From: Cyanidioschyzon merolae
Taxonomy: Eukaryota
DNA: 64,000 nt
Assembly: GCA_000091205.1 (NCBI GenBank)
Contig: AP006492.2
Strand: one strand, 5' to 3'
Part shown: positions 5,191 to 55,673 of the stretch, in pieces
Layout of the letters: each line of letters begins with the position of its first letter
How positions within the stretch are numbered: the first letter of the stretch is position 1
Program-made: the position numbers and the translations under genes
Notes under the pieces: model-generated
Databases searched by the model: none
What the model was told of the DNA's origin: nothing
What the model saw: only the letters and a program-made list of their open reading frames with translations

Positions 5191-5415
5191 TTTAAGCCTC
5201 TATTGCTACTCTTTGAGTTTCAGCACTATACAACTGAAAAAGGTATGAAAAAATCTCATGGCATGAACAGAGCGAGCGGTTCAGTGCTCCGTTCGGATAC
5301 AACGCGACGGCCGCTTGTTGCGGTTTGTGTGTATGGGCGTGAACGTGCGCGGCACAGGAACGACGTCAGGGTTTCGACGGTTCTCCGGAATCGGGAATGT
5401 TTATATACTCGCTTT

Positions 5416-26814: not shown

Positions 26815-29800
26815 ATGGCACTTGCGAGCAACACGCTTCCAACGCTTCCTATTGAGGCAGCGTTGCTGACGGTTCTGGACGTTGGTATACACGGGAAGCG
26901 CGCTGCGGTACCAGGAAAACTACTAGGTTTGCGCACGAGCGCAGACATTGAGTCGGTGGTGAGGCGCGGTGAGCTGCCTTTTCGTGAGAGATTTCTTCTG
27001 GTGACGGCTGTCAGCCGCGACGGGCGTTCTATTCGAATCAGCGACGGCAAGAATAGCATCCTGGCGACGTGTTCGGAGCGGCTCTCGCAGGAAGCGGACG
27101 TACACGGAACGGTGCCGTTTCCGGTGTCTTTGCGCGACCGATGTGTATTTATGAACGGGTGTGTTCGGCTCAGTGCGGCACGTGACCTGGAATCAACGAT
27201 TACGGAGCCCGACGCGTGGGATCTCGCAGTGCGCGAGCACGCTGCCCGCCTGTACGGGCAGTGGTTTCGAAAGACGATGCTTGCGGGTGGCGGGACCCGA
27301 CCCTGGACTGCTTTTCTGCAACAGGTCACCATTGAGAGTTTCATTCGAGTCGAAGTCGAGCTGGTCAACACACAGACGACAGCATGGGCGTTTCCGAACC
27401 GAATGATGACCGGAGATGTGGTGGATGTGAACCAAAGCTTGCGAGTCAAAAGGAAACTGACGCAGTGCCTGATCCATCTGTTGGCACCAATTGAATACCG
27501 CGATAATGTGCCGGCGTATGCAGGGAGCGCATCGGCGAAGACAGGTGTTCGCGGTGCAGATGCGCTTCACGAGTTGCCTTGCTCCGATGCGGTACCATCC
27601 AATGAAACCTCCGGTGGGTATCCTCGGAATGCGTGTCCAGTCGAGGACGCGGGCTCAACAACCGGAGCCGTCCCACAGGCGCAGCACGCGCCAATACCGC
27701 GGCCTCTGGCTCTGCGTATGCGACTTGCAGCCAAACAGCGACCTGTCGAAGGATCAGACGATCCGATGCCACAAAGTGAGGCCGCTGATTCCTGTGCACC
27801 GATCAACTCCAGCAAATGCGATGGTGATGTTAGAGCGCAAGCGCCTCCGCTGAGGAAGAACGCGAAAATTGGTCAGTCTCATGAGCCGTTGCCGGACGCT
27901 ATGGCCACAGAAAGCAGCGGAGGAACTGATCAAGGCTCAGGTGCTAGCGCAAAGCATGCGGTTCATATCGAGAATCAGATCGCGGCCATGGCTTTGCCCA
28001 AAGTCGACCTGGCCCCAACTGGTAGCACGTGGGCGAATGTCGGCGACGCAGAGAAATCGAACACCGAAGCGCCCGAAAGCACCGTGGGTGGCACTTCCGA
28101 GAACGCCTTACTTCGGGGGAAAGAGCTCCGCGTTCTCTATAACGCACTGGAAGCGATGCGCCTGCCACCGAGTTCCTTGTCTGCATTAGAAGATGAGCAT
28201 GCAAGGGGTCCAGTAACGGAAATCGGCGCGCTCGGGTTGGCGCCTGCTCCGATTTCTGGCCCCGTGTCTGAGCAATGTGCATCTACCGAGGATGATCAAA
28301 TAGCCCCTGCGGTTGGCAGCCAGCAAAGCCAGCACACTGCTCTCACACCCGGGACGCCAACGGCATGCCCAACGAACGACGCTGTTGAGAACGCACAGCG
28401 AAATTTACATAGCGATCTGGTATGTGTCACGGAGTCTGTTGAAAGCGATGCCGTGCGCCGAGGAGCGCCTCCAGGAGCAAACACCATCCCTAGTGATGGT
28501 GATGACAAAAACGATGATGCGGCTCAAGCATGTCAGGATCATTCGGACGGTCGCAAACCATCGAGTGATGATCGAATACGCTCTCAGAAACGTATGCGCA
28601 TCTCACATTTGAGCTGCGACCGCAGAAGCCCTGAAAAACCCCAGGAGAGCGAGAGCGTCTGCACAAGTACGTCCCGAGAAACATTTCAGCAAGACAATAA
28701 CATTACGAACAGCGTTAGCACTTTCGAAGCAAACCTCATGAATATGAGCCCGGTACCGCGAAAGCGTTGCAAGGCTATTGTGCCAAGCAGCGCCACACGG
28801 ACACCTTCTGATGGACCCGCTCACGCCAGTAACGAACGACAAATCTCTCCCCAAGATCGCGCAGACGAGGCAACTGTGCGCGACAGCAATGGGACTGCGG
28901 CTGTAGCAATAGCCCCTGCATTCCAAGACACCGCAAACGGAACCTTGCCGCATAGGCAGTCGCAAAGGTCGCGCCAAACCCGCAACGCCGCTGTAACAGA
29001 CGGGGAAAATACGTCAGGTTCTCTGAATGCAACAGCACTGCCGCCGAAAAATCGCCGAGGTAAGAAGCCACGGCGGCGCGCTCCTCAGCCTATTGAAGAG
29101 ACGGGTCATTCCTCACCCGGGCAGGGCACGCGCAACAGCACGTTCGTCGGCCCCAGCAAAGCGTGCGACTCGTCCCAGCAAGCTCTGCAGCGCACACAAC
29201 TGGAGTGTCAGTTAGAAACGGCTGGCAAACACTCGAACCAGCACGAGTCAGTTCCTTTTGACTGCGCTCGCGACCAGACCAGTGACTCATCGACGACGAC
29301 AATGACGACGCAGCCACCACCAACATCACCACCATCGTTTTCTAGTACGGTACCGCCAGACGCTCAGCGCATTGCCGTAGAGTCTCCGCAGCTCGCGGAT
29401 TCAGCCGCATCGCCTGCTGGGCAAGAGCACCGCGGCCGCAAAACTCGCTCGGAACGGCGCCCCTTACCGGTGCATGCGCAGGATAGAGGTGATGGCGCAT
29501 GCAGGAATGCCACGTGTCCCGCTGGAGACAGCACCATCGACGCGCACGCATCTCCATTGATGACTGGCGAGCGTGATCGCACGCACCCGGTACGTGGAAG
29601 TGCGCGCGCTGCAGACGCGACTGCATGCGCTGATGGTCCGAAAAACGCTATGCAGGCTAGTGGCGAATTGCATGAGCGCCGCGATGCCCCCAGTGTGCCT
29701 TCAGATGATCTCCAGAGCCTCGTTGCGAATGGAACACCGCGAATGGCGCTGCTAACAGCTGGTACCGTCCAATCAAAGCGGTCTGAGGAGGAACGGTCCA

Positions 29801-29961
29801 TGTCAGCAGCAGTTACGCCCGTTCGCTCAGGGCACGCGAGTCCCGACACAACTTGTGCCCAGAGTGCTCTGCCGCCGTGGGCTCGCTACCTGCGCAACCT
29901 CGGTAGATGGCGGTTTTTCAAGGGACAAAAATGGCGAAATGATCCCCGAGATCCCTCCTAG
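26815..29961 (+). CDS. hypothetical protein: ~230-aa ordered N-terminal domain followed by ~800 aa of Ser/Thr/Pro/Ala-rich low complexity
   Basis: A 1048-codon open frame is too long to be chance even at this GC. I recognise no family signature. Confidence 0.45.
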   Translation: MALASNTLPTLPIEAALLTVLDVGIHGKRAAVPGKLLGLRTSADIESVVRRGELPFRERFLLVTAVSRDGRSIRISDGKNSILATCSERLSQEADVHGTVPFPVSLRDRCVFMNGCVRLSAARDLESTITEPDAWDLAVREHAARLYGQWFRKTMLAGGGTRPWTAFLQQVTIESFIRVEVELVNTQTTAWAFPNRMMTGDVVDVNQSLRVKRKLTQCLIHLLAPIEYRDNVPAYAGSASAKTGVRGADALHELPCSDAVPSNETSGGYPRNACPVEDAGSTTGAVPQAQHAPIPRPLALRMRLAAKQRPVEGSDDPMPQSEAADSCAPINSSKCDGDVRAQAPPLRKNAKIGQSHEPLPDAMATESSGGTDQGSGASAKHAVHIENQIAAMALPKVDLAPTGSTWANVGDAEKSNTEAPESTVGGTSENALLRGKELRVLYNALEAMRLPPSSLSALEDEHARGPVTEIGALGLAPAPISGPVSEQCASTEDDQIAPAVGSQQSQHTALTPGTPTACPTNDAVENAQRNLHSDLVCVTESVESDAVRRGAPPGANTIPSDGDDKNDDAAQACQDHSDGRKPSSDDRIRSQKRMRISHLSCDRRSPEKPQESESVCTSTSRETFQQDNNITNSVSTFEANLMNMSPVPRKRCKAIVPSSATRTPSDGPAHASNERQISPQDRADEATVRDSNGTAAVAIAPAFQDTANGTLPHRQSQRSRQTRNAAVTDGENTSGSLNATALPPKNRRGKKPRRRAPQPIEETGHSSPGQGTRNSTFVGPSKACDSSQQALQRTQLECQLETAGKHSNQHESVPFDCARDQTSDSSTTTMTTQPPPTSPPSFSSTVPPDAQRIAVESPQLADSAASPAGQEHRGRKTRSERRPLPVHAQDRGDGACRNATCPAGDSTIDAHASPLMTGERDRTHPVRGSARAADATACADGPKNAMQASGELHERRDAPSVPSDDLQSLVANGTPRMALLTAGTVQSKRSEEERSMSAAVTPVRSGHASPDTTCAQSALPPWARYLRNLGRWRFFKGQKWRNDPRDPS

Positions 29962-30541: not shown

Positions 30542-31123
30542 TTACGGGCTTTTTCGGGTGACGCCCGACTGTTGTGCAGGCGGCGACAAAATCGTCTGCA
30601 GTGTGCGCTCCTCGGCGGCACTCCAGCGCCAGCGCTGCCCAACGATTTGCTGCGTCAGCTGCCTTATTTGCGTCTTCGTCAACAACCGCGGACTCGCCAG
30701 TGTCTTCGAGGTAAGCGACAGCGTGCCGCGTCGCCTCAGGACGGTGACGCCTACCAGACCGCCGAGCAGGGCGCCGCCAAGCCACAAACCACGCAGCACA
30801 GGATCAGTCCAAAAGATATCACTTTCTTGGAACCAAACACTTTGGCCGTACTCCTGTGTGAGATAGTCACGAATCGTCTCCGAATCCAGACCGTCCCGAA
30901 GCAGTTTCCGTACTCGGTCGCGTAGCGCTACAGCGGTGGGAGCGTTCGAAAACTCAATATTTTGACCACTGCCGCATTCTAAGCAGCGAATTGCTCTAAA
31001 AAGCGCCTTGGCCTTTTCGTTGAGCAAAATCTCTTTTTCATCGACCTGGTCTGCGGTACCCGCGGGGTTCCGCGGGTCAGACATGGCGCTCCCCAGGGAA
31101 ACGCATGGGTGCCAGGGAAGCAA
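30542..31123 (-). CDS. CCMH: CcmH-like cytochrome c-type biogenesis protein (System I / CCM pathway thiol-reductase component)
   Basis: 'FRAIRCLECGSGQNIEFSNAPTAVALRDRVRKLLRDGLDSETIRDYLTQEYGQSVWFQE' matches the CcmH core (LRCxxCQNQSIADSNAPIAxDLRxxVxExLxEGxSxxEIxDYLVxRYGDFVLY), including the CxxC. A TM anchor follows ('LWLGGALLGGLVGVTVL') and then a C-terminal extension, as in plant CCMH. Confidence 0.65.
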   Translation of the reverse strand: MLPWHPCVSLGSAMSDPRNPAGTADQVDEKEILLNEKAKALFRAIRCLECGSGQNIEFSNAPTAVALRDRVRKLLRDGLDSETIRDYLTQEYGQSVWFQESDIFWTDPVLRGLWLGGALLGGLVGVTVLRRRGTLSLTSKTLASPRLLTKTQIRQLTQQIVGQRWRWSAAEERTLQTILSPPAQQSGVTRKSP

Positions 31124-31305
31124 CGCTGACGATGGACGGTGACGTGCGTTGCCATCACAAGCGCAGCGGTCGATCGTCGGGAACGTTTCATTCCTTGTGT
31201 TTCAGCTCCATTCGATTTCAACTTAGACGCGATGTATAGCATGAGATCGAAATCACGATGCAATGCACCGGATAGAATGTAGACGAATTATGTGCAGTAT
31301 ATATG

Positions 31306-33615
31306 CTTTACTGAACAGTGCAAGGTGGACTGCATTCCTCATTCAGGTCAGTAATGCCTCAGTACAGAGATAATTCAGGAGCACTGCAAGAGCGAAGCAT
31401 AGGCACGCAGCGCCAGAACCGAAACTCTTAGAGATTGCTTGCGGTCGGTGTTAGAAACCGAACCGTTGATCAGTTTCGGCAAAGCAAAAGCGACGATGGA
31501 AGTCGCCACGGGCGTCTCTGTTTCCCAACAGCTTGTTGGTTCGGTCCTGAATACACTGGAATACAGCCGCGTAAGAAGAGTCCTAGTTTACGCACAGTCA
31601 TCTTGCACCGAAATCGCAACTATAGCGTTCCCGGAACGTCACGATCGATATGAAGCACGTGGACGTCTGTTAGTTTTTGCCAGTCGATGAGGCTCGCTTC
31701 GGACGAAATCGATCGGGGCGTACGTGGGTCTTCGCGGAGCAGGGAGCCTGCCGTACCTACGATCGAACTCGAAGAGAAGTAAGACATCAGCATCTGTTCT
31801 AGATTGATTGGATGCATTTCGCGGCCTCAGATTCGCTTGTAGAGAGGGCTCATATAACAGCACCGACTACATTGTCGAATCATTGAAGACTTTTCCCCGA
31901 AATCTGGCGGCGTCCGTCTATTGGACAACGTGGCATTGCACCATTCCCCTTGCGTTCAATCTTTTTCCCGATTGTTTAAGGGTGCAGCTGCTTTTCATTC
32001 CGCGCTACGCGCCGCGGTTCAACCCCGTCGAAGGAGCCTTTTCGATCGTGAAACGTAATGATAGCTCCACTGGGCGAATTGCTGAAACATTCAGTAAACG
32101 TAAGGTACATGAGCACATATTGATTTCCTTCCACAAGTCCTGCTCGCTTCGGGAAGGTACTCATAAAACGACATTAAGATGCGCATTCATTTTTGAAGCA
32201 AAAAATCCAAGGGATAGGTATGGACGTGCAAGTTGGAGATCCTGGAGGCTCGATGTGTCGCCGCCTACCGGGAAAAGCGACAAAATTCCCTTCTCGCCTC
32301 CCATCGAGGGAAGAAGAGCAGTTAACCAAGTAGATAATGATTGGGGATAGCCAAGAAAAGGTGTTTTCGCCCGGCAGTACGTTGGCGAGACTCTAGTCGC
32401 ACTAAGCGCACGAGTTCTAGGAATCCTTGGAACGGTTCGTGCAAGTAGAGGCAATAAACGCATCGAGTTCGTGAACCGAAACTCCAACGCCGCCATCCGT
32501 ATCAGACGAAATGCGGTGCGAAAGACGAGACCCGAATTGCTGATGGCATCCATGTTTCTGGGGCAGCCTTTCAGGCTCGAAGTGTGCCTGGATCTGAACT
32601 GAAACCGATAGGAGTCGGCTGGTCGCAACAGGCCGGAAGGCGCCAATTCGTGAGCGTATATTTACCCTCCATGGTCGTAGAACGTTTTCCGTTTCACTGA
32701 CGATCGATAGGGAGCTCGTACATGCACACAGCAATGCTTGGGACTCCTCCACCTGCCATTAGAACCGAACGACATAGGTTGCTCTGCAACTGCTTCCTTT
32801 TCCTCTCTGTTACCCTCGATATGAAATACGCTCAAAAATCATGGACTAAGAGCGCCGTGGCGAGCAGTCCAAGCATGTTGATTGCAGCGTCCAGGTCGCG
32901 CTTCTGTGCTCAATCAGGATCTGCGCTATTCATGTCATCCACGGGAGGTACGTGCGATCGCCACCTCACTTGCAGGTTTCATCTTCTTTGTCCACAGCTT
33001 CGGTATGCTGCTTACGACGATGACACCTGCGCGCGGTCGGATGTGCCCGTATTCATATGTATATACATCGGAGATCCCCCGACTTCGACCGCCAGCCTTT
33101 GGCGCGAAAACGCGTGCTGCATCGCTCCGCAAACGCCTGTGACGGGTACCGAAGGCTCCGGTTGATGCCTCCTCGTGCGTTCCTTGCGGCCGGTGTCGCA
33201 CGCCTCCATCAAGCGCTTGTCTGGGGCGATCCGCTCGGCGAGTACGCCGTCCGCTGGACGTGTAGGCGTACGCCGTCGCATTCGAGAGCGCCTCACAAAA
33301 GGCGATGTCGTGCCCGATGGACGGTGCGCACGAGTTGCACAGAAACAGCGATACAGAAAACAAGAAGCATGCGTGATTCGACCATGCCACACACGAGGCA
33401 GAGGAAAAGCCTCGAGACTCTTTTCTACGAACTGAATAATGATACCAGTTGTTTTTGGAACCATCGTTCGAGGGCGTCACGAATCACCCTGACGCGGTTG
33501 ACGGTACGAATTCCAGCGGCAAAGCGTCGATTGCGTCACTCCGAAACCACAATCCGGAATCCTGGAACTGCACATGGATCCGTGAGCCCTTATTGCATCC
33601 ATTTTGGACATCGAG
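31306..33615 (+). mobile_element. composite repeat: degenerate Tc1/mariner (IS630-Tc1-type) transposase remnant (31306-32344) joined to a ~1.27 kb non-transposase module (32345-33615); this is the most complete copy in the window
   Basis: The ORF fragment 31439-31690 gives the HTH-like N-terminus 'ISFGKAKATMEVATGVSVSQQLVGSVLNTLEYSR'. The ORF 31808-32350 contains 'LLFIPRYAPRFNPVEGAFSIVKR', matching the DDE_3 signature 'LLFLPPYSPDLNPIE..W'. The transposase is internally deleted and interrupted by stops. The same junction to the downstream module recurs at ~63340 and, divergently, within 50553-51790. No TIRs were confirmed. Confidence 0.6.
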
Positions 33616-34444
33616 GCTGTATATTTATGAAAACTTGCGGAAAAGAAATCGTGATGCAGATACAGAGCGAGTCGTTCAGTGTTCCATTTTAATCTTTGTT
33701 TTCCTTTCGACCATGGAGCCTCGTGCGCACCCAGCGGCACGCGCGTTGATGACGCCGGATCGATTCACTGTATCAGGGCCTCGTGGAAAAGCGAGCGCTA
33801 CCCGAAAACAAGTGAGGGATCTCGTCCGCTCAAGAGGTGCTACCAGTTTCGACTAATCCAAAAAAGGCACTGCTGCAACAGTCGAGGCTTTATCCAGCGA
33901 ATCTCCGGGTGCCGATCCGACCGTAATGCTTCGTGTCAGTCCAAAGCAGCCAATCAGGATCCTCCGGAGGCGATTCCACTTTCCACGAGCCCTCGGCCAA
34001 CGACCTCATCGAGGTAAGGAGTCTGGTCGATCGAGCGCCATGAGTCGTCCTCTATGGGCCGAGTATACAGCAGACGCTTCCTGAGACGCTGGATGCCCGC
34101 CACTGCCGCTGCCGCTGCCGCTGCCGCAATGGTCGTGGTCGTGGTCTACGTTCTGAGAGACAGCGGCCTTGCGACGCCCCGCGCACGTCGGCTTGAAGCG
34201 CAACAATGCCTGGCACGAAGCAAGGAACGCTCTTGGGTCCCGGCTCTAACACCAGCTTGCGTAGCCAAGCCTGCCGACGGTGCGGAACAACCCGCTGGAG
34301 GAACTCGGCAAACCGAAGCCAGCTCGCCGGCTCGGCGCTCCCGTCAGGTTCGTGCAAGTGTGCGCTCCGTGGCAGCCGCGTCCATCGTATAGCGCTCCTG
34401 CATTGCAACAGCGCCCGGAACGTGGTTTTCTGAGACGCACACCA

Positions 34445-34790
34445 TAGGCCCGCGCGCACATGCGATGTGCATGCGGATCGCGCGCCTCTGGGCAGCAGCA
34501 TTGCAGCAGCGGTCAGAGCGTGATCCAGTGGTATATTCTGGCAGCGCGCGCACATGCGATGTGCATGCGGATCGCGCGCCTCTGGGCAGCAGCATTGCAG
34601 CAGCGGTCAGAGCGTGATCCAGTGGTATATTCTGGCAGCGCGCGCACATGCGATGTGCATGCGGATCGCGCGCCTCTGGGCAGCAGCATTGCAGCAGCGG
34701 TCAGAGCGTGATTCCATGACACTCACCACAGATGCGCGTACAGCCGATGTGCATGCGGATCGCGCGCCTCCGTGCAACGTGTACGTTCAT
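34445..34790. repeat. tandem repeat, 94-bp unit x ~3.6 copies, 240-580 bp upstream of the GAPDH start
   Basis: 'cacatgcgatgtgcatgcggatcgcgcgcctctgggcagcagcattgcagcagcggtcagagcgtgatccagtggtatattctggcagcgcgcg' recurs at 34457, 34551 and 34645, with a partial fourth copy to ~34790. Confidence 0.9.
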
Positions 34791-35018
34791 CGCTTTCGCG
34801 TATCGAGGAGGCGCCTTGGCAGTGCGCTGCCCGATGCGCCCACGAGGTGATGCAGTACCTCCACAGCTGATACGGCCCGCGTTGGTGATGCGGACGACGC
34901 ACCCTGCTCACAACGAGCCGCCGATACAACTCCGTCAATTGCATTGGTGTTGCTCACGAGCGAAATCAGTGCTTTCTTGCACGTTTTGCGCCCATCGGTA
35001 GAAACGTTCGTTTAGTAG

Positions 35019-36059
<1,041 letters not shown>

Positions 36060-36472
36060 GCGATGGAGATCACGATCAGTATCTGGACGGCGGTAGGAAC
36101 GTTCTTCAAATCTCGGTAAAATACGACGGACCATGCAGAGCGTTCCATTGCATTTCGAAGGTTCAGTCATCGATGTGCCTGCCAAATGTTTTTCTCGGGC
36201 CTGGTTACCCAATCCGACACTGGAAAAGCGTTGCCAGGGTCTCGCACTTCGGGCCTCGAGCCCGCCAGCGAGCCATCGACGTAATCCGAAGATGCTTTCG
36301 GATCGAGTCGAATGGGTGCCCGCGTTCGGTGCTGCTCGATGCCTCAGTGTACTCATGGCAACGTCGTCTTGGATATACTCGTGTCCGACCAGAATGGTAC
36401 GAGGTTGCTCGTTTAGAACGGGCATACGCACGAACGTTTGCGTCTGTTTCCACCGTCACAAGCACCAGTTCT

Positions 36473-37313
36473 TGCTGGTATTTTCTGCAACTGCTTCCTT
36501 TTCCTCTCTGTTACCCTCGATATGAAATACGCTCAAAAATCATGGACTAAGAGCGCCGTGGCGAGCAGTCCAAGCACGTTGATTGCAGCGTCCAGGTCGC
36601 GCTTCTGTGCTCAATCAGGATCTGCGCTATTCATGTCATCCACGGGAGGTACGTGCGATCGCCACCTCACTTGCAGGTTTCATCTTCTTTGTCCACAGCT
36701 TCGGTATGCTGCTTACGACGATGACACCTGCGCGCGGTCGGATGTGCCCGTATTCATATGTATATACATCGGAGATCCCCCGACTTCGACCGCCAGCCTT
36801 TGGCGCGAAAACGCGTGCTGCATCGCTCCGCAAACGCCTGTGACGGGTACCGAAGGCTCCGGTTGATGCCTCCTCGTGCGTTCCTTGCGGCCGGTGTCGC
36901 ACGCCTCCATCAAGCGCTTGTCTGGGGCGATCCGCTCGGCGAGTACGCCGTCCGCTGGACGTGTAGGCGTACGCCGTCGCATTCGAGAGCGCCTCACAAA
37001 AGGCGATGTCGTGCCCGATGGACGGTGCGCACGAGTTGCACAGAAACAGCGATACAGAAAACAAGAAGCATGCGTGATTCGACCATGCCACACACGAGGC
37101 AGAGGAAAAGCCTCGAGACTCTTTTCTACGAACTGAATAATGATACCAGTTGTTTTTGGAACCATCGTTCGAGGGCGTCACGAATCACCCTGACGCGGTT
37201 GACGGTACGAATTCCAGCGGCAAAGCGTCGATTGCGTCACTCCGAAACCACAATCCGGAATCCTGGAACTGCACATGGATCCGTGAGCCCTTATTGCATC
37301 CATTTGGACATCG
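36473..37313 (+). repeat. 5'-truncated copy of the ~1.27 kb module (matches 32788-33615 at high identity)
   Basis: Near-identical ORF translations in the track (32722/36438, 32935/36636, 33057/36758, 33175/36876). Direct nucleotide comparison shows homology ending at '...ttattgcatccatttggacatcga' in both copies. Confidence 0.8.
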
Positions 37314-38536
37314 ATCTGTACATCTAAAGAGCGTTCGGGAAACTAATCGAAAAGCAGGATGCGAGTAAGCAATTCGGTGCTCCATCTTCATATGAAGCGA
37401 CTCAAGCCCTGCAGGTTCAATCGATGTCTCTGCTCGCGGAGGCTCACTGACGGATTCGCCACAAGCCATCAGAAACCAGACGACTTTGTTCAGTGCTAGA
37501 ATAACGTTGTCCTGGTACTAGCAGTCGCGAACCTCCTGGTTTTCTTCTAGCGGCATTCCCAGTTGTTTGCTCTATGCGTTGTGTGCACGGGTGCTCGCCA
37601 GAGCCCGCATTCGTTATCTTTTTGGAGCATATTTGCTTCTCAGGACATGCTCGAGTTGCAGCCCTCGCGCCAATACCTCCCTGCATTCGATACACGTATT
37701 CGAAAGGCTCGCGGTGCTGGCGACCGCGCTTCCGTGCTGGACGGTGAACCGGACAACCCGCGTGCCTACCGCGCTGCACCAAAGGTGCGAACCCTCGGAC
37801 CCAGTGGTACTACAGAAGACGTTTCAGGCTGGTTCTCGAAGAGCCCCAGCCTTCACAGCTCCCGGACGGGGCAGCAGCACGTGCCCGACGCGTGAACGTC
37901 AACGCTGGACGCAGACAGAGTCTGGGGTGCGCAGAGGTCCTCGGCGCTGGACACTGCTTCCCCTGCGCGTTTCCGTCCGCAACGTTTCCATTTTCCCGCG
38001 CCCAGTTCGCGACAACGAAGCCTTCGATGTTTGCGTGCGCCTGGACACGGCCACTTTGGTGCGTCGAGCAGTGCGCAAGCTCACCAAGTGTCTGTGCAAT
38101 CGGTGCTACTGCACCGACGCCACCACGCAATAACGAGTACAACCGTGCCTGTCTCGAAATCGCTCGCTCTTGCAGCACGCGATGCTGTGAGGTCTAGCGT
38201 CTACGATCGCTAGCGTTGAAGCGCGTTCGATGGGTCCTTTCTTATCGACCTGTTGTTGACAAGAGCCGCGAAGGATGCTCTCGTCAGCACGCACTGAATA
38301 CCAGCAGCAGAATAGGACGTTTCCTGGCGTGTCCATCAATGTCGTATCAGCAGCGCGTGCCTCGATAGCCCAGTGGCAGCGGCGACGGCGGCGGCAGCAG
38401 CAGCGATGCCCTTCTTGACCTCGCAGCACTGCACAGAAAGGCACTGACGTGTCGAGGAGGTCGCCAACGGAGCGATAACAACGCTGACCTGGGTTGGGCG
38501 CTCGAGGACGGAGTTTACTGGTCCCTGGAGGTTCTC

Positions 38537-42153: not shown

Positions 42154-42349
42154 CGCGCCGCCGCAACGCGGCGCACCAGTCGGCTTCAATTATTCTACAT
42201 CTGCGACTTGCTGAAGCGCACGTAAGAGCCCTGCCTCGGTCACCTATGGAGGACGTGACGCGACAAGAATCGCACGATCTCATTTGATTCAGGGGAGTAA
42301 TTGTTACAGGGAAATATCTTTACCGACTGTAGGAAATAGTGAGCACGGA

Positions 42350-43633
42350 ATGTGGAGACCGATCACCAGCAGGCAGCTCAGCGTGCTCTGCTGGCGACTC
42401 GGCAGCACGGCGTTGACGCGAACGTCAGCCGCTCGTGTCAACGCCGGGCGACGAAGACCCAATGAGTTGCGCCCCTTGTTGCGAAGACCGTGCACCTCGG
42501 AAACCTCAACAAGCGCCAAGCCGGTTTCAGCCACTGCGCGCACAAGCGCAGCGCCCGAGCCGCGCACCACCGAGTCCGCGTCAACAGCCGAGGTCGACCA
42601 GCACACCTCGTCGTCGTCGGTAGCAGAGGCAGCACCCGAGGCGGTCCAGGCGTACCGTCCGGGGGATCGCCGACCCGGCTGGGCCGGGTTCTTCCGAGGC
42701 CTCTTTGGCGGCACCCAGGCGGCGATCGAGGATACGCTCGCAGCGGAAGCTCGGAGGCGCGGCCAACTCAACGACGCAGAGCCCGTGCGAGCCAGCGTAC
42801 AGCGTGCTCATCGCTCGCGATCAGCAGCCACCTCTCACGCAACGTCTACGGCGTCGGCAGCGAACCGCGAAGCTGGCACCGCACTGGTACCCCAGGGGCG
42901 CGTTCGGTCGCACGACGATGACGCTCAAGGCGATGCATCCACAACAACAGGCTATGCGTCCGTGCTGAACCGAATCTTTTCGCGGTTTGCGGGTTCACCG
43001 TTTATGCGATCAGTGCTGGAGGCTAAAGAGCGCGTCAGCGAGCGTCTGGATGAGAGTGATCATCCAGTGGTGAACGTCTTTCGAACGATTCACGACCGCT
43101 TCTTCGCGGAGAATGAAATGGCACAAGTCATTGGAGCGATTCGGACCCTTGATCCCAAGTTTACCATATCTCGTTTCCTTGTAGATATCGAGAGTCGTCT
43201 GATTCCAACCGTTCTTGGAGCGTATCTTGCCGGTGACCTGGAGACATTGCAAGAGCACTGCACTGAAGAGGCGTTCGCTATGATGGCTGCAAGCATCCAC
43301 GAACGGCGCCTCAGCGGCATCGTCATGGACACGCGCATTCTGGACCTGGACCACGTCGAGCTGGTAACCGGTAGGTTCCTCGACGAAGAACCCGTGCTTA
43401 TCGTACAGTTCACCACGCAGCAAATCCATTGCCTCCGGGACCTCCACGGTGAGGTTATTGAGGGTGCGCCCGATAACATCCGCGCCGTGTACTACGTGTG
43501 GGCACTGTGCCCGGCGTTCGCGGGAGAGCCCGCCGCCTCTGCCGCCGCCGCCGCCGCCGCTGAAGACACGACATTCACCCCGACGTGGCGTCTCATGGAG
43601 ATGGTCGTTCGTGGGGCACACGCAACCATATAA
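42350..43633 (+). CDS. TIM44: mitochondrial import inner-membrane translocase subunit TIM44
   Basis: C-terminal Tim44 domain: 'VIGAIRTLDPKFTISRFLVDIESRLIPTVLGAYLAGDLETLQEHCTEEAF...LIVQFTTQQIHCLRDLHGEVIEGAPDNIRAVYYVWAL'. R-rich presequence from ATG 42350; the ORF track starts at 42284. Confidence 0.8.
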   Translation: MWRPITSRQLSVLCWRLGSTALTRTSAARVNAGRRRPNELRPLLRRPCTSETSTSAKPVSATARTSAAPEPRTTESASTAEVDQHTSSSSVAEAAPEAVQAYRPGDRRPGWAGFFRGLFGGTQAAIEDTLAAEARRRGQLNDAEPVRASVQRAHRSRSAATSHATSTASAANREAGTALVPQGRVRSHDDDAQGDASTTTGYASVLNRIFSRFAGSPFMRSVLEAKERVSERLDESDHPVVNVFRTIHDRFFAENEMAQVIGAIRTLDPKFTISRFLVDIESRLIPTVLGAYLAGDLETLQEHCTEEAFAMMAASIHERRLSGIVMDTRILDLDHVELVTGRFLDEEPVLIVQFTTQQIHCLRDLHGEVIEGAPDNIRAVYYVWALCPAFAGEPAASAAAAAAAEDTTFTPTWRLMEMVVRGAHATI

Positions 43634-50552: not shown

Positions 50553-51790
50553 CTTTACTGAACAGTGCAAGAAGGACTGCATTCCTCCTTCAGGTCAGTC
50601 GTACAACAGTGCTCAGATGCCTGAGGAACAATCAAAGAAACAAGGAGATGCATTCCGCGTAAAAAACCGATATTTTTCAACACTGCTTGCGGTCAGTGGT
50701 AGAAACCGACCCATCGATCGCCTTATGGAAAGCAAAAAAGACGATTGGAGTCGCCACGGGTGTCGCTGTTTCCCAACAGCTTGTTCGTGTGGTCTTGAAA
50801 TCTCTGGGATACAGTCGCTTCGGAAAATTCGGTAGGCGCGTGTATGGGTACTTGCGGAGAAGGGCGCCCATTGTATGTAAAATCGAACTCGGAGCGAACG
50901 ACGACATCATCCTCTGTCCAAGCTCGAGGGGATTCATTTGACGGCCGCAGTCTCGCTCCTGGAGAGGGCACACACAAGAGCGTCAAGCACTTCGTCGAAC
51001 CATTGAAGACTATTCCCTGACTTTTGGGGACTTTCTTCCACTAGACAACCCGGTATTTCACCGTTCTGCTTGCGTTCGGGCTTTTGCCGATTGTATACGG
51101 GTACAGCTGCTTTTCATTCCGACGTGCACCCAGCGGTTCAACCCTTTCGAAGGAGTGTTTTCGATCGTGGTACGATAATGATCGTTCCACTGGGCGAATG
51201 ACTGAAGCGTCCAGCACATGGTGACACCAGGAGCACATGACGGCTTCTCCCCGCAAGTCCGTCTCATTCCGCGAAGGTCCTCACCTAAAGGATAAACAAG
51301 CACATTCATTTCCAAGCGATAAAAAATCCACGTGATGAACTCGGATGCACTCTTCAGAAGATCGACATGGAAAAGTGCCAGCGGAGCGCTTGGGTGATAG
51401 AAAAGTTCGGCAAGCTGACAGCGCAGCAAATGGCGCAGAGGGCACGGGATCCAGTACTCCCTGCACTGGAGCGTTCAAAGAGCGTCAAGAAACGCACAGA
51501 GCTCTTGAACCGGCACCTTCACGCCGCCATCCATATCAGAGGATATGCGGTGCGAGAGACGAGACACGAGCCGCTGACGCTGCCCGATTCTGTTCTGGGG
51601 CAGCGTCCCAGACTCGACGTGAGCCTGGATCAAAACCGAAACCGATAGGAGTCGGCTGGTCCAACGACGCTGGGAGGCATCTGCGCGTTTTCAGACATCT
51701 ATCCAGCCTGAACAGTTGTGGAGCGTTTTTCGTTTTACGAATCGTGCACGCATCCGGAGCGTGTGCGCTGGGCAACAACGAGACTCGCGA
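50553..51790 (+). mobile_element. second, more diverged and internally deleted copy of the Tc1/mariner-like composite element
   Basis: The 5' end 'ctttactgaacagtgcaag...' matches 31306. The ORF 50687-50941 gives 'SIALWKAKKTIGVATGVAVSQQLVRVVLKSLGYSR', homologous to 31439-31690. The DDE tail 'RVQLLFIPTCTQRFNPFEG' is at ~51100. Positions 51525-51690 are homologous to 32470-32650. Confidence 0.55.
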
Positions 51791-51908: not shown

Positions 51909-54900
51909 GTGGCTATGAGTGAACGCCTGCGGCTCTTGGGACGGCGAGTCACGCTTATGGATGTTCTTGTACAGTTCACGTCACGAGGAAGAGTACCACC
52001 AGCTGCGATTAACACTGTACGTAGAAAAGTGGCGCATCTGGGAACTTTGGCTTTAGAGTACATTGGAGATCAGGTAGCTCGAACAAAGCGCTGGTTGCGA
52101 TTGTCGGAGTCGCTTCGTGATCCAGCGCAGCCGTCCTGCGCCGGATCACGGGTGTGGCCCTCACAGGGCTCCACAAGTACTACGGAAACGATATATGCTG
52201 AGCACGCACGCTTACGGCTGATTCAGGACTCAAAGTTCGCAGCATCCGGAACCACAGCGAACCGAGGCACGGCCCTGACTGGGAGCCGGCTTGCACGACT
52301 TGAGCGTACACCGACGTCGCAGGTGCGAGTGGCTTCAACGTACGTCGCACGAAACCGGCGCAACGCTCAAGTTGGTGGCCGGTGCTCTCCTCTGGCGAGG
52401 CAGGCGGAATCAACTGGTCTGCTTTACCTGAACCCAACGGTTGCGCGGTGTCGCGTTTTATCCGTGGACGGAGGTGCGGCGTCTCTCGTGAGCGAGGCGG
52501 GTTCAGCAGCGGAGGAGACGCTTCCAGGCACTGGCCGCCAAGTCTCTCAAGCTGATGACTCTTCCTGTGATTTGCGTTGTCCGGAAACACCAGCTTGTGC
52601 GGAAGAGGCGCAGCAGCGAGGACCGGGCCGAGAAGCAAAGCATTTGGCTTCGCCGACCTCCGCTGCACCTCTCGCTCCACAGGGCGAGCGCCTCTCCTCG
52701 GAAAATGTGCGTGAAGCCTCGGCGTGGTCGCGAGCTCCTGAGCGGATAAGTGAGCCAGCATCGCCAGAACTAGGCCTGCGTGGGCATAACGAGGCGCATG
52801 GCCCCGCTGTATGCTCCCTCGGTGGCAACGCTTCCAAGCGATCGACCCCGTCCAAGCCGATCGCCCAAGAGAGTTTGTTTCCGGTTGCGGACGGTCGTCC
52901 GATGCGTTCGAGTCGAGAGCCGGCGCTCATCAAGACAACCGGGGAGCCGTTATCCACGCAGTCGGCGAAAGAGGTTGCCAACGATGAGAAGCTGGACTGG
53001 GTTGAACTCCAGCAGCGTATTGCCAGCGATAGCGGCCTCTATGGCAACCGCCATGCCCTAGGACTAGAGCGCTATCTGAACGCAGCAGAATTAGCCGAGG
53101 CCACCCGTCTCGGTTTACCAGGCACGATGAGATCCTCTGATGGGTACCTTCATGACGAGATGGACTATTTGCGTGAATTCAATCTGGAGGAACGCGCAGT
53201 AGAAGCGGCCGTTGCCCGTTATCGTTCTTTCACGCAAAGTGCTCTAGAGCGCGGTGACATCAACTCGCTGCAACCTAGCCAGCGATTGCTTCTGAGCTGG
53301 TTCTTTCCCGTGACGATGGCGATCCATCAGGAGCAGGAACGTATTCGACGAGGCGAGCTCTCCTACGACGGTAACGTCTGCGGCCCGCATTTGCTCCGGC
53401 TGAAGCCCGAAGTGCTGGCGGTGATTGCACTTCACGAGACGCTGGGGAGGGTTCTGCAGGATCGTGCTGGCGTCGCCTTTATCCGAGTTGCATCTGCTGT
53501 TGGCCGCTCGGTTCAAGCGGAAATCAACTTACAGCGATTGCGGGAGCTTCACTCTGAACAGCGGCATCGTCAGCTTCCACAAGACCGGGCGCTGCGACGC
53601 ACGCTTGCGCTAGCCTCAACGGGAAGTGGTGGCTCACGCGCTGTCGCTGCCATCAACCTCGCTGCGAAGCGCATGGAGCTGGACACCGCCACTTGGGATG
53701 ATTCCGTCACGATCAAAGTTGGCTCGGTGCTCATATCATTCGTCATGAAGCACGCGCTCATTCATATCGACACGCCAACAGGGAAGCAGGCAGTCCAAGC
53801 GTTTCGGCACGGTTACCGCCCGCTGCAACGAGAGCCACGCAAGGTTGGCGTGATTGAGTTGCACAAGTCCGTGTTGAACTTGCTCCTCGCCAACGAGAGC
53901 GACTTGCGAGAGACGATTCTACCACGTTTCCAGCCGATGCTTGTGCCCCCGCGACCTTGGACCGCATACAACAGTGGCGGATATTTGCGCCCTCGTGGCC
54001 TCGTGATGCGTGTACGAGGTTCCAGACTCCAGCTGGAGGCCTTGAAGAAAGGCGATCTGTCCGAGGTCTTCGCCGGCCTGAACGCACTTGGTGCAACTCC
54101 GTGGCGGATAAATCGCCCGGTCCTGGACGTCGTCGAGAAACTGTGGCGCGCTGGCGGTGATATTGCAGGTCTTGTCGCTCGTGCAGACCTGCAGCTGCCG
54201 GCGCTTGCGGAGTCCGTCGTGGACCCTGCTCCAGATGGCAAGGAGTCTGCCGCTTCGACAGAATCACTTTCGCGGGAACAACGGCGAGCCATTTGGCGAA
54301 TACGGAAGACAAACCGCGAGCGGCACGCGCTTCGTTGTGAGCTGCACTATCGCCTAGAGACTGCCCGAGAGTTCGCCGACGTTTCCCGCTTCTACTTGCC
54401 GCATAATCTTGATTTTCGTGGGCGCGCGTACCCGATGCCGTCCCATCTACACCACATGAGTAGCGACGTATGCCGCGGTCTCTTGACGTTTGCTGGACCC
54501 GGTCTCCGGGTTGGTGAGCGGGGACTTTTTTGGATGAAGGTGCACCTGGCAAACCTCTGTGGTATGGACAAGTTGCCTTTCGACGAGCGGGTCGCTTTCG
54601 CCGAATCCGTCATGCCCAAGGTACTGGCGGTTGCCGCTGCGCCGACTGCGGATTCCAACCTAGAATGGTGGGCGCAACAAGAAGATCCGTTTCAGCTGCT
54701 GGCGGCATGTTTTGAGCTTGCAGCTGCAAAGGGCGGGCTGGACCCCGACTATCACAGCACGTTGCCGATTCAGCAGGATGGCTCTTGTAATGGCCTACAA
54801 CACTATGCTGCATTGGGACGCGACGAGCGCGGCGGCTATCAGGTGAATCTGCTGCCCAGCGAGCGCCCACAGGATGTCTATTCTGGAGTCGCTGAGCTCG

Positions 54901-55673
54901 TACGTGAGCGGGTGGCGCATGACGCACGCGAAGGCGTCCCGATCGCTCAACTGCTTCAGGGAAGAATCAGCCGCAAAATCGTGAAACAAACCGTGATGAC
55001 CTCTGTTTACGGAGTAACGCTCATTGGAGCACGCGAGCAGATCCAGAATCGTCTCCGAGAGCTACCGGATTTCCCGGAGGAGAAAACCTGGGAGGCCAGC
55101 TTCTACCTGGCTAAGCAAACGCTTGGCTCTCTGGGCGATATCTTTCGCGGCGCGACGGATACCATGGAATGGCTCGCGGAGTGTGCGCTCCGTGTGGCGA
55201 CCTCTAAGGAGCGAACCAACGCTGTCCGTTGGATAACGCCACTCGGGCTGCCGGTCATCCAGCCTTACCGAAGACGGGAAGCGCGTCTCGTGAACACTGT
55301 TGTCCAGCACGTGCTGCTCGAGGCGCAGAATGACCACTTACCGGTGAGTCGCGCTCGACAGCGAAGCGCGTTCCCTCCGAATTATATCCACTCACTGGAC
55401 TCGACGCACATGCTGATGACGGCGCTGGCCTGCCGACGCGCTGGTCTGCAGTTTGCGGCAGTGCACGATTCGTTTTGGACACATGCAGCCACGGTCGATG
55501 AGATGAACCGCCTGCTTCGCGAATGCTTCGTTAGGCTTCATGCCCGCGATCTTCTGCAGGAGCTTCGCGAACAATTTCAGCTTCGTTTTCCGGACGTTGA
55601 ACTCCCACCGGTACCTCCGAAGGGTACACTGGACCTGAACCAGGTCCTGCTGTCGCCATACTTTTTCGATTAA
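51909..55673 (+). CDS. POLRMT: phage T3/T7-type single-subunit DNA-directed RNA polymerase (mitochondrial RNA polymerase, RpoT/POLRMT)
   Basis: Catalytic-core motifs 'LPIQQDGSCNGLQHYAALGRDE', 'KIVKQTVMTSVYGVTLIGA', 'FPPNYIHSLDSTHMLMTA', 'AAVHDSFWTHAATVDEMNRLLRECF', and a C-terminal '...FFD'. Long low-complexity N-terminal extension. Confidence 0.9.
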   Translation: MAMSERLRLLGRRVTLMDVLVQFTSRGRVPPAAINTVRRKVAHLGTLALEYIGDQVARTKRWLRLSESLRDPAQPSCAGSRVWPSQGSTSTTETIYAEHARLRLIQDSKFAASGTTANRGTALTGSRLARLERTPTSQVRVASTYVARNRRNAQVGGRCSPLARQAESTGLLYLNPTVARCRVLSVDGGAASLVSEAGSAAEETLPGTGRQVSQADDSSCDLRCPETPACAEEAQQRGPGREAKHLASPTSAAPLAPQGERLSSENVREASAWSRAPERISEPASPELGLRGHNEAHGPAVCSLGGNASKRSTPSKPIAQESLFPVADGRPMRSSREPALIKTTGEPLSTQSAKEVANDEKLDWVELQQRIASDSGLYGNRHALGLERYLNAAELAEATRLGLPGTMRSSDGYLHDEMDYLREFNLEERAVEAAVARYRSFTQSALERGDINSLQPSQRLLLSWFFPVTMAIHQEQERIRRGELSYDGNVCGPHLLRLKPEVLAVIALHETLGRVLQDRAGVAFIRVASAVGRSVQAEINLQRLRELHSEQRHRQLPQDRALRRTLALASTGSGGSRAVAAINLAAKRMELDTATWDDSVTIKVGSVLISFVMKHALIHIDTPTGKQAVQAFRHGYRPLQREPRKVGVIELHKSVLNLLLANESDLRETILPRFQPMLVPPRPWTAYNSGGYLRPRGLVMRVRGSRLQLEALKKGDLSEVFAGLNALGATPWRINRPVLDVVEKLWRAGGDIAGLVARADLQLPALAESVVDPAPDGKESAASTESLSREQRRAIWRIRKTNRERHALRCELHYRLETAREFADVSRFYLPHNLDFRGRAYPMPSHLHHMSSDVCRGLLTFAGPGLRVGERGLFWMKVHLANLCGMDKLPFDERVAFAESVMPKVLAVAAAPTADSNLEWWAQQEDPFQLLAACFELAAAKGGLDPDYHSTLPIQQDGSCNGLQHYAALGRDERGGYQVNLLPSERPQDVYSGVAELVRERVAHDAREGVPIAQLLQGRISRKIVKQTVMTSVYGVTLIGAREQIQNRLRELPDFPEEKTWEASFYLAKQTLGSLGDIFRGATDTMEWLAECALRVATSKERTNAVRWITPLGLPVIQPYRRREARLVNTVVQHVLLEAQNDHLPVSRARQRSAFPPNYIHSLDSTHMLMTALACRRAGLQFAAVHDSFWTHAATVDEMNRLLRECFVRLHARDLLQELREQFQLRFPDVELPPVPPKGTLDLNQVLLSPYFFD

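What the first reader, a model, noticed from the sequence alone, without database searches (positions are those of the whole stretch)
30542..31123. Nuclear gene for a CcmH-like System-I cytochrome c maturation protein
The ORF carries the diagnostic CcmH core: the CxxC 'RCLEC', then 'SNAP', 'DLR', 'DYL..YG', followed by a TM anchor and a C-terminal extension. System I (CcmA-H) is bacterial and is retained in mitochondria of only some eukaryotic lineages (land plants, red algae, jakobids, ciliates and a few others). Most other eukaryotes use holocytochrome c synthase (System III). A nuclear CCMH therefore implies that the organism's mitochondrion still runs System I, presumably with ccmC/ccmF in the mtDNA, which is phylogenetically informative. 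Nothing else in this window belongs to the pathway.
Basis: partly seen in the sequence, partly recalled or inferred. Interest (0 to 1): 0.55.

Follow-up and report, generated by a model that had tools for sequence, protein, structure and literature searches.

The report
Known red-alga CCMH cytochrome c gene

Summary
The ORF is real. It lies on the minus strand and passes Pfam CcmH (PF03918; 57.4 bits against a cut-off of 25). Its modelled core matches the solved CcmH three-helix bundles 2HL7 and 2KW0. The true coding sequence is 30542-31084, 180 aa from the first ATG. The 193-aa form starts at a TTG and is an artefact of ORF calling. The 180-aa protein is identical to BAM80358.1/XP_005534965.1, "similar to cytochrome c-type biogenesis protein ccmH" of Cyanidioschyzon merolae 10D. 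That same accession is listed as the C. merolae CCMH in Supplementary Table 2 of Li et al. 2024 (Nat Commun 15:1548). The table also lists nuclear CCME, mtDNA-encoded CCMA, CCMB, CCMC and CCMF, and no HCCS. This has been in the literature since 1998 for the mtDNA genes and is restated in 2016 and 2024 papers. The protein has no signal peptide and no presequence. It has an acidic N-terminus, the R33-C34-L-E-C37 redox motif, one transmembrane helix (about 96-116) followed by RRR, and a basic 64-residue tail. A motif in that tail is shared with plant CCMH and alpha-proteobacterial CcmH. Orthologues occur in all cyanidiophyte genera examined and are under purifying selection. Nothing else in the window belongs to the pathway. 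The finding is correct, ordinary and already known.

The parts
30542..31084 (-). CCMH coding sequence: 180 codons plus the TAA stop at 30542-30544, with no intron.
   Evidence: The translation is identical to P0005 = BAM80358.1/XP_005534965.1 of C. merolae 10D. PF03918 scores 57.4 bits. The start ATG aligns with the orthologue's ATG.
31085..31123 (-). It is a 5' leader, not coding.
   Evidence: The orthologue has an in-frame TAG directly before its ATG, and the upstream DNA is not alignable in frame. All orthologues start at the Met.
31028..31084 (-). Residues 1-19: an acidic, poorly conserved N-terminus with no signal peptide and no classical presequence.
   Evidence: Residues 1-20 carry a net charge of -3. 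This stretch varies among cyanidiophytes and has pN 0.55. Bacterial homologues carry a hydrophobic leader here.
30800..31027 (-). Residues 20-95: the CcmH redox domain, a three-helix bundle.
   Evidence: AF2 gives pLDDT 72-89 over residues 11-80, with helices 8-31, 49-63 and 68-79. Foldseek matches 2HL7 (TM 0.75, rmsd 1.4 A) and 2KW0 (TM 0.65). phmmer finds 2HL7 and 2KW0. pN is 0.125 against pS 0.95.
30974..30985 (-). C34-L-E-C37, the redox-active CXXC, preceded by the invariant R33.
   Evidence: Read directly as TGC TTA GAA TGC on the minus strand. R33, C34 and C37 are invariant in alignments of red algal, plant, Palpitomonas and bacterial homologues.
30737..30799 (-). Residues 96-116: a single glycine-rich transmembrane helix, followed by R117-R118-R119.
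   Evidence: It holds the best 19-residue Kyte-Doolittle windows in the protein, 1.51. AF2 models helix 95-118. R119 is invariant in the alignments, though not in the wider set.
30545..30736 (-). Residues 117-180: a basic C-terminal tail, predicted to lie on the matrix side.
   Evidence: Net charge is +10. The polymorphisms among near-identical strains all fall in residues 170-180.
30578..30631 (-). Residues 152-169, W-R-W-S-A-A-E-E-R-T-L-Q-T-I-L-S-P-P: the conserved tail motif.
   Evidence: Ten of the 18 positions are invariant among four cyanidiophyte sequences and the rest vary. It aligns with Juglans and Oryza 'LTP(K/R)EKETMLD(L/V)LTPPP', Galdieria 'YERRLIDMLTPP' and alpha-proteobacterial 'LS.EE...L..LL'.

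Best explanation
This is the nuclear, intron-less CCMH gene of Cyanidioschyzon merolae. It encodes the CcmH subunit of the mitochondrial System I cytochrome c maturation machinery.

Mechanism, inferred from family membership and from published work on Pseudomonas, E. coli, Rhodobacter and Arabidopsis CcmH/CCMH:
1. The protein is made in the cytosol without a cleavable presequence.
2. It inserts into the mitochondrial inner membrane through its single transmembrane helix (about residues 96-116).
3. The acidic N-terminal three-helix redox domain faces the intermembrane space. The basic tail (RRR and onwards, net +10) faces the matrix.
4. The R-C34-L-E-C37 dithiol attacks the disulfide in the CXXCH motif of apocytochromes c and c1 and keeps the cysteines reduced.
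5. CCMH works in a complex with the mtDNA-encoded heme lyase CcmF, which receives heme from CcmE. CcmE is loaded by CcmC and released by CcmAB.

Shown here: gene identity, family membership, fold, motif conservation, the lack of an N-terminal leader, purifying selection, and synteny. Inferred: localisation, topology, import route, redox chemistry and partners. As in plants, the donor that re-reduces CCMH is unknown, because no CcmG is listed for this organism.
For: - PF03918 at 57.4 bits, E 1.2e-15, cut-off 25.
- 100% identity to C. merolae BAM80358.1/XP_005534965.1, 'similar to cytochrome c-type biogenesis protein ccmH'.
- phmmer hits to the CcmH structures 2HL7 and 2KW0, with RCxxC, SNAP, LR and DY..YG aligned.
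- AF2 core at pLDDT 72-89. Foldseek's top hits are 2HL7 (TM 0.75, rmsd 1.4 A, prob 1.00) and 2KW0.
- R33, C34, C37, S46 and A51 are invariant from bacteria to plants in every alignment made; R55 (aligner-dependent), Y79 and G80 are invariant or nearly so.
- Orthologues exist in Cyanidiococcus, Cyanidium caldarium and Galdieria yellowstonensis. More distant homologues occur in Physcomitrium, Juglans, Oryza, Closterium and Palpitomonas.
- Against the 65%-identical orthologue the core has pN 0.125 and pS 0.95.
- Synteny is conserved: polyprenyl synthase, a large ORF, CcmH, then Spb1 and Tim44.
- The transmembrane helix, the RRR, the +10 tail and the -3 N-terminus come.
- Literature: the same accession is used as the C. 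merolae CCMH, with CCME nuclear, CCMA/B/C/F in the mtDNA and no HCCS (PMC10879542). The mtDNA ccmA/B/C/F set is stated in PMC5174734. The CcmH mechanism and the reduction of an apocytochrome peptide by At-CcmH are reviewed in PMC3884852. CCMH as the apocytochrome reductase of the intermembrane space, with no known reductant in plants, is in PMC10669224.
Against: - There is no direct experimental evidence for this particular protein. Localisation, topology, redox activity and essentiality in C. merolae were not found in the papers searched.
- The N-terminus has no recognisable mitochondrial presequence, so the import route is inferred by analogy only.
- NCBIfam gives only a sub-threshold NrfF match and no equivalog.
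- The AF2 model is poor outside the core (mean pLDDT 61; the transmembrane helix and tail are below 50).
- I did not myself search the complete nuclear and mitochondrial assemblies for ccmC, ccmF or HCCS. That part rests on the literature.
Confidence: 0.95

Rival explanations
1. It is an NrfF-type subunit. NrfF is a CcmH paralogue that serves the NrfEFG heme lyase for the CXXCK site of nitrite reductase. On this view the protein would not be a cytochrome c/c1 maturation factor.
For: The only NCBIfam hit is TIGR03147 NrfF, at E 6.9e-09. JGI's automatic name is 'CcmH/NrfF'.
Against: The score of 35.4 bits is far below the family cut-off of 159.2. NrfF and CcmH share PF03918, so a weak cross-hit is expected. 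The organism is a eukaryote whose listed partners are CcmA, B, C, E and F. The closest named relatives outside the cyanidiophytes are plant mitochondrial CCMH and bacterial CcmH.
Confidence: 0.01
2. It is bacterial DNA, either a contaminant or a recent horizontal transfer, and not a resident nuclear gene inherited through the mitochondrial endosymbiont.
For: The family is bacterial in origin. 1415 mostly bacterial representatives hit the profile.
Against: - The gene is embedded among eukaryotic genes (MCM6, GCP, Spb1, Tim44).
- It sits in the same syntenic position in a 65%-identical relative and in several metagenome contigs.
- It lacks the bacterial signal peptide.
- It shares the eukaryote-type RC.ECG motif and the tail motif ending in (S/T)PP with plant CCMH.
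- The best bacterial hits are only about 33-41% identical over half the length.
Confidence: 0.01
3. It is a decaying relic that is no longer used, for example because another system matures cytochrome c.
For: System I has been lost at least 11 times in Archaeplastida, including in all other red algae.
Against: The ORF is intact in every cyanidiophyte genus examined. In the core, synonymous sites are saturated (pS 0.95) while pN is 0.125. The catalytic residues are invariant. No HCCS is listed for C. merolae, and lineages that retain System I lack HCCS.
Confidence: 0.02
4. The protein is targeted to the plastid or to another membrane, not to the mitochondrial inner membrane.
For: It has no canonical mitochondrial presequence, and no targeting predictor could be run.
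Against: There is no N-terminal transit-peptide-like extension either. The N-terminus is short and acidic, as it is in the Oryza and Physcomitrium CCMH sequences compared; the Juglans isoform carries a long N-terminal extension. According to the title and abstract of PMC5526843, plastid c-type cytochromes have their own maturation pathway. From my own knowledge, not checked here, that pathway is System II (CcsA/Ccs1). All listed partners of this protein are mitochondrial.
Confidence: 0.02

Closest known systems
Cyanidioschyzon merolae 10D CCMH (BAM80358.1 / XP_005534965.1)
   Same: Identical over all 180 residues. The window is this locus, or a strain identical to it at this gene.
   Different: Nothing differs at the protein level.
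Land-plant mitochondrial CCMH (Arabidopsis AtCCMH At1g15220; Juglans, Oryza and Physcomitrium sequences seen here)
   Same: - Nuclear gene with no signal peptide.
- RC.ECG redox motif.
- One transmembrane helix.
- A tail motif ending in (S/T)PP.
- The AtCCMH recombinant protein reduces an apocytochrome c peptide (PMC3884852), and the Arabidopsis ccmh knockout is lethal when homozygous (PMC10879542).
   Different: - Only about 24-28% identity overall.
- The cyanidiophyte proteins have CGSGQ, a one-residue insertion, where plants have CG(S/H)Q.
- In Cyanidioschyzon and Cyanidiococcus the (P)P after YG..V is replaced by 'WFQESDIFWTDP'.
- The tail is about 25-30 residues longer between the transmembrane helix and the motif, and carries W-x-W before it.
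Bacterial single-domain CcmH / CycL (Pseudomonas aeruginosa CcmH, PDB 2HL7; alpha-proteobacterial CcmH)
   Same: - The three-helix-bundle fold (TM 0.75, rmsd 1.4 A).
- LRCxxC, SNAP, LR and DY..YG motifs.
- A transmembrane anchor followed by RRR.
- A cytoplasmic tail motif 'LS.EE...L..LL'.
   Different: Bacterial proteins have a cleavable N-terminal signal sequence and the motif CxxCQNQ. They are re-reduced by CcmG and DsbD (PMC3884852), and no CcmG is listed for C. merolae. Identity is 30-33% over about 65 residues.
E. coli CcmH (bipartite; N-domain structure PDB 2KW0)
   Same: The N-terminal redox domain is homologous (E 9.1e-05; TM 0.65).
   Different: E. coli CcmH has a second transmembrane segment and a CcmI-like TPR domain (PMC3884852). 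This protein has neither; PF03918 is its only Pfam hit.

Membership tests
CcmH/CycL/Ccl2/NrfF family (Pfam PF03918) | Profile score above the curated gathering threshold | tested here: met
   57.4 bits against a cut-off of 25, E 1.2e-15, covering profile positions 25-125 of 143.
CcmH/CycL/Ccl2/NrfF family (Pfam PF03918) | Conserved (L)RCxxC redox motif in the loop between helices 1 and 2 | tested here: met
   R33-C34-L-E-C37 is present. R33, C34 and C37 are invariant across algal, plant and bacterial homologues and align to the LRCPKC motif of 2HL7 and 2KW0.
CcmH/CycL/Ccl2/NrfF family (Pfam PF03918) | Non-thioredoxin three-helix-bundle fold | tested here: met
   The AF2 model has helices 8-31, 49-63 and 68-79 at pLDDT 72-89. 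Foldseek against the PDB gives 2HL7 (TM 0.75, rmsd 1.4 A over 67 columns) and 2KW0 (TM 0.65), both with probability 1.00, and nothing else below E = 1. This is a prediction, not a solved structure.
CcmH/CycL/Ccl2/NrfF family (Pfam PF03918) | A single membrane anchor after the redox domain, with a positively charged flank on the cytoplasmic or matrix side | tested here: met
   The Kyte-Doolittle maximum of 1.51 falls at residues 96-117, followed by RRR. The tail has net charge +10 and the N-terminal domain -5.
Mitochondrial (eukaryotic) CCMH of System I | Nuclear-encoded, with no bacterial signal peptide, and the eukaryote-type RC.ECG motif and tail motif ending in (S/T)PP | tested here: met
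   The neighbouring genes are eukaryotic. There is no hydrophobic N-terminus. The motifs are shared with Juglans and Oryza (both motifs), Physcomitrium (redox motif) and Galdieria (redox and tail motif).
Mitochondrial (eukaryotic) CCMH of System I | The same organism has the rest of System I (ccmC, ccmF and ccmB in the mtDNA; CCME) and lacks HCCS | not testable with these tools
   The complete assemblies were not available. The literature lists CCMA, B, C and F in the mtDNA, CCME XP_005536347, and no HCCS (PMC10879542 Supplementary Table 2; PMC5174734). Inside the window no ORF of 200 aa or more hits a Ccm or HCCS family.
Mitochondrial (eukaryotic) CCMH of System I | Inner-membrane localisation with the CXXC domain in the intermembrane space | not testable with these tools
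   There is only the charge-distribution argument and the analogy with plant CCMH (PMC10669224). No targeting predictor was available.
Mitochondrial (eukaryotic) CCMH of System I | Thiol-disulfide oxidoreductase activity on the apocytochrome c CXXCH motif; requirement for holocytochrome c and c1 | not testable with these tools
   This is biochemical and genetic. It has been shown for Arabidopsis, Rhodobacter and Pseudomonas homologues (PMC3884852) but not for this protein.
NrfF (TIGR03147, heme lyase NrfEFG subunit) | Score above the NCBIfam curated cut-off | tested here: not met
   35.4 bits against a cut-off of 159.2.
E. coli-type bipartite CcmH (CcmH fused to a CcmI-like TPR domain) | A second transmembrane segment and a C-terminal TPR domain | tested here: not met
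   There is only one hydrophobic segment. Pfam finds nothing besides PF03918. The tail is 64 residues long.

The most novel reading that the evidence does not exclude
The most novel reading not excluded concerns the tail. Cyanidioschyzon, Cyanidiococcus and Cyanidium share a lengthened, strongly basic matrix tail: residues about 117-151, then W-x-W ahead of the motif that Cyanidioschyzon and Cyanidiococcus end in SPP. This could be more than a linker. Together with the transmembrane helix it might act as an uncleaved internal (Bcs1-like) import signal. Alternatively it might dock CCMH to a lineage-specific partner, for example the mtDNA-encoded CcmF or the still unknown system that re-reduces CCMH in mitochondria lacking CcmG. 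The evidence does not require either idea.
Probability: 0.15. Interest if true: 0.2.

Novelty: already known. Interest (0 to 1): 0.06.

Why it matters
It matters little as a discovery. The gene has been deposited and named since the C. merolae genome project. The mitochondrial ccmA/B/C/F set was described in 1998. [quoted passage not shown]

Cyanidiales are the only red algae that keep it.

The checks add some housekeeping value. They give the correct start codon (180 aa), show that the 'C-terminal extension' is an ancestral CcmH tail motif shared with plants and alpha-proteobacteria, and show that the protein, like the plant CCMH sequences compared here, has no presequence. The electron donor for mitochondrial CCMH remains open, but that question concerns the whole field and is not specific to this locus.

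Tried and rejected
- NCBIfam gave no equivalog, only sub-threshold NrfF and a spurious 'mobile mystery protein B' at E 0.011.
- The first word-indexed homologue search found only three cyanidiophyte clusters. A profile search added bacterial CcmH. The exhaustive HMM search was needed to reach Cyanidium, Galdieria and the plants.
- In one search the second-best hit, P0020 (1475 aa, 22 stretches matching profile positions 83-126), is a repetitive protein that matches only the glycine-rich transmembrane segment. I treated it as a low-complexity artefact.
- The primary AtCCMH paper (Meyer et al. 2005, PMC1276046) is not held. Statements about AtCCMH come from reviews and later papers. My recollection that AtCCMH is imported without cleavage could not be checked and is not used as evidence.
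- dN/dS could not be computed because synonymous sites are saturated, so pN and pS are reported instead.
- I did not search for ccmC, ccmF or HCCS in the whole genome. The public collections on offer are prokaryotic, viral or metagenomic, and I had no query sequence. This part rests on published tables.
- No tRNA genes are in the window.
- ORFs under 200 aa were not systematically scanned for CcmE. The C. merolae CCME accession (XP_005536347) is about 1,400 accession numbers away from CCMH, which suggests a different locus. This is an inference.

Full report
**1. Observation**

The window holds an uninterrupted ORF on the minus strand at 30542-31123, 193 aa from a TTG. Its first ATG is at 31084 and gives a 180-aa protein.
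- R-C-L-E-C at 33-37.
- S-N-A-P at 46-49.
- D-Y-L-T-Q-E-Y-G at 73-80.
- One hydrophobic stretch at about 96-116 (Kyte-Doolittle 1.51), followed by R-R-R.
- A 64-residue tail.

'DLR' is not literally present. The protein reads A-L-R-D where bacterial CcmH has D-L-R.

Pfam gives one hit, PF03918 CcmH, at 57.4 bits against a gathering score of 25, E 1.2e-15.

**2. Start codon**

The TTG extension is an artefact of bacterial-style ORF listing. I aligned the 5' region with that of a 65%-identical orthologue from a hot-spring metagenome (L007). The two ATGs are in register. The orthologue has TAG immediately before its ATG, and the upstream DNA differs by indels. All orthologues and the deposited protein begin at this Met. 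The gene is therefore 30542-31084 on the minus strand, 180 codons plus the stop, with no intron.

**3. Whose gene it is**

The 180-aa translation is identical to BAM80358.1/XP_005534965.1, 'similar to cytochrome c-type biogenesis protein ccmH [Cyanidioschyzon merolae strain 10D]'.

The larger ORFs of the window are typical eukaryotic nuclear genes:
- PurA-like protein
- TACO1/YebC
- an aminotransferase
- a WAC/DDT chromatin protein
- polyprenyl synthase
- GAPDH
- Spb1
- Tim44
- a gamma-tubulin complex protein
- a PP-loop ATPase
- a phage-type RNA polymerase
- PRA1
- MCM6

None of them belongs to cytochrome c maturation. Metagenome contigs 99.5% identical to the window carry the same arrangement. 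A more distant relative keeps the order polyprenyl synthase, large ORF, CcmH, Spb1, Tim44. The gene is a resident nuclear gene, not a contaminant.

**4. Family membership**

Beyond the Pfam score:
- phmmer against PDB sequences finds only the two solved CcmH domains below E 0.001. These are Pseudomonas aeruginosa 2HL7 (7.6e-05) and E. coli 2KW0 (9.1e-05), with the RCxxC, SNAP, LR and DY..YG positions aligned.
- An AlphaFold2 model built on a 15-sequence alignment is confident only in the core, at pLDDT 72-89 for residues about 11-80. It shows three helices: 8-31, 49-63 and 68-79.
- Foldseek against the PDB returns 2HL7 (TM 0.75 normalised to the target, rmsd 1.4 A over 67 columns, probability 1.00) and 2KW0 (TM 0.65). 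Nothing else scores below E = 1.
- In alignments spanning red algae, plants, Palpitomonas and bacteria, R33, C34, C37, S46 and A51 are invariant in all three. Y79, G80 and R119 are invariant in two of the three, and R55 in two, or in all three depending on whether one reads MAFFT's summary line or its printed columns.
- The NrfF model of NCBIfam scores 35.4 bits against a cut-off of 159.2, so that sub-family is not met.
- The E. coli-type CcmI-like TPR half is absent.

**5. Distribution and constraint**

The exhaustive profile search found 1415 representatives at E <= 0.001 but only 8 at E <= 1e-10.
- Named close relatives are Cyanidiococcus yangmingshanensis, Cyanidium caldarium and Galdieria yellowstonensis.
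- More distant eukaryotic homologues are the 'CcmH-like mitochondrial protein' of Physcomitrium, Juglans and Oryza, plus Closterium and Palpitomonas bilix.
- Against the 65%-identical orthologue, synonymous sites are saturated (pS 0.83 overall, 0.95 in the core). Non-synonymous differences are few in the redox domain (pN 0.125) and more frequent in the N-terminus (0.55) and the tail (0.34). This shows purifying selection centred on the redox domain.
- Near-identical strains differ only at residues 170-180.

**6. Anatomy compared with relatives**

- Bacterial homologues start with a hydrophobic signal sequence. The cyanidiophyte proteins, like the Oryza and Physcomitrium ones compared, start with a short acidic, variable segment; a longer Galdieria gene model and the Juglans isoform carry N-terminal extensions (net charge -3 over residues 1-20). 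There is no signal peptide and no obvious arginine-rich amphipathic presequence.
- The redox motif is of the eukaryotic type, RC.ECG, with a cyanidiophyte-specific one-residue insertion: CGSGQ where plants have CG(S/H)Q and bacteria have CQNQ.
Its conserved part, W-R-W-S-A-A-E-E-R-T-L-Q-T-I-L-S-P-P, aligns with 'LTP(K/R)EKETMLD(L/V)LTPPP' of Juglans and Oryza CCMH, with 'YERRLIDMLTPP' of Galdieria, and with the 'LS.EE...L..LL' tail of alpha-proteobacterial CcmH.
- Specific to Cyanidioschyzon, Cyanidiococcus and Cyanidium are about 25-30 extra residues between the membrane helix and that motif, and the W-x-W ahead of it.

**7. How it most likely works**

These steps are inferred from the family:
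- The transmembrane helix anchors the protein in the mitochondrial inner membrane.
- The positive-inside rule (RRR, a tail of +10, an N-terminal domain of -5) puts the tail in the matrix and the redox domain in the intermembrane space, as described for plant CCMH (PMC10669224).
- CcmH is an unusual, non-thioredoxin thiol-disulfide oxidoreductase. Its CXXC is thought to attack the disulfide of the apocytochrome CXXCH motif. It forms part of the heme-ligation complex with CcmF (PMC3884852).
- The Arabidopsis protein reduces an apocytochrome c peptide (PMC3884852), and the Arabidopsis ccmh knockout is lethal when homozygous (PMC10879542).
- In bacteria CcmG and DsbD recycle CcmH. No such partner is known in plant mitochondria, and none is listed for C. 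merolae. The electron donor therefore remains unknown.
- Import without a presequence presumably relies on the transmembrane helix together with its basic flank. This is speculation.

**8. The rest of the pathway**

This part could not be tested on the window and rests on papers.
- Li et al. 2024 (PMC10879542) took their red-algal System I queries from C. merolae. Supplementary Table 2 lists CCMA BAA36528, CCMB BAA36529, CCMC BAA36544, CCME XP_005536347, CCMF BAA36527 and CCMH XP_005534965, which is this protein. The HCCS column is empty. The C. merolae mtDNA accession they used is D89861.
- They found HCCS in every archaeplastid lineage lacking System I and in none that retains it. They count 'all red algae in Rhodophytina' among the losses.
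- Nishimura et al. 2016 (PMC5174734) state that the full mitochondrial set ccmA, ccmB, ccmC and ccmF is known only from C. merolae (Ohta et al. 1998), jakobids and Palpitomonas.

**9. Verdict**

The novelty category is 'already known'. Interest is low. The only residual curiosities are the missing presequence and the lineage-specific lengthening of the matrix tail. Both are minor and neither is unexpected for eukaryotic CCMH.

Noticed in passing
window 32763-33606, 36464-37307 and 63346-64000 (plus 32339-32700, which is similar to 63346-63707): A dispersed repeat has three copies in the window at 98-99.9% identity. Two of the copies are direct repeats 3701 bp apart that flank the GAPDH gene. 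Metagenome contigs 99.5% identical to the window all end inside or just before this element, so it is probably multi-copy in the genome.
   Followed up: partly
window 31808-32350 (+); weaker relatives at 50749-51678: An ORF has a short, sub-threshold match to the DDE_3 transposase family (21.3 bits against a cut-off of 28.6). It lies about 720 bp beyond the CCMH start codon, on the gene's 5' side, and adjoins the dispersed repeat. It is probably a degraded Tc1/mariner-like element.
   Followed up: partly
window 31085-38536 compared with L007 4211-6000: In C. merolae 7.4 kb separates CCMH from Spb1. This interval holds the transposase fragment, the two repeat copies and a GAPDH gene (35028-36059). 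In the 65%-identical relative the two genes are only about 1.8 kb apart and no called gene in between has a Pfam hit, though the gap itself was not translated or searched. The GAPDH block may be a repeat-mediated insertion or duplication.
   Followed up: no
window 34451-34776: A 94-bp unit is repeated in tandem about 3.5 times, with the first two copies identical. It lies roughly 250-580 bp upstream of the GAPDH ORF.
   Followed up: no
window 26815-29961 (+): A 1048-aa ORF rich in Ser, Pro and Ala has no Pfam hit. It is convergent with CCMH, with the two 3' ends 580 bp apart. An ORF of 861-999 aa sits at the same syntenic position in relatives.
   Followed up: no
window 5203-6273, 42284-43633 and 51909-55673: Three other nuclear genes in the window probably encode organellar proteins: TACO1/YebC, Tim44, and a phage-type single-subunit RNA polymerase. 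None belongs to cytochrome c maturation.
   Followed up: no
P0020, outside the window: A 1475-aa protein matched the glycine-rich transmembrane part of the profile 22 times, with E 3e-59. I treated it as a repetitive low-complexity artefact and did not inspect the sequence.
   Followed up: no
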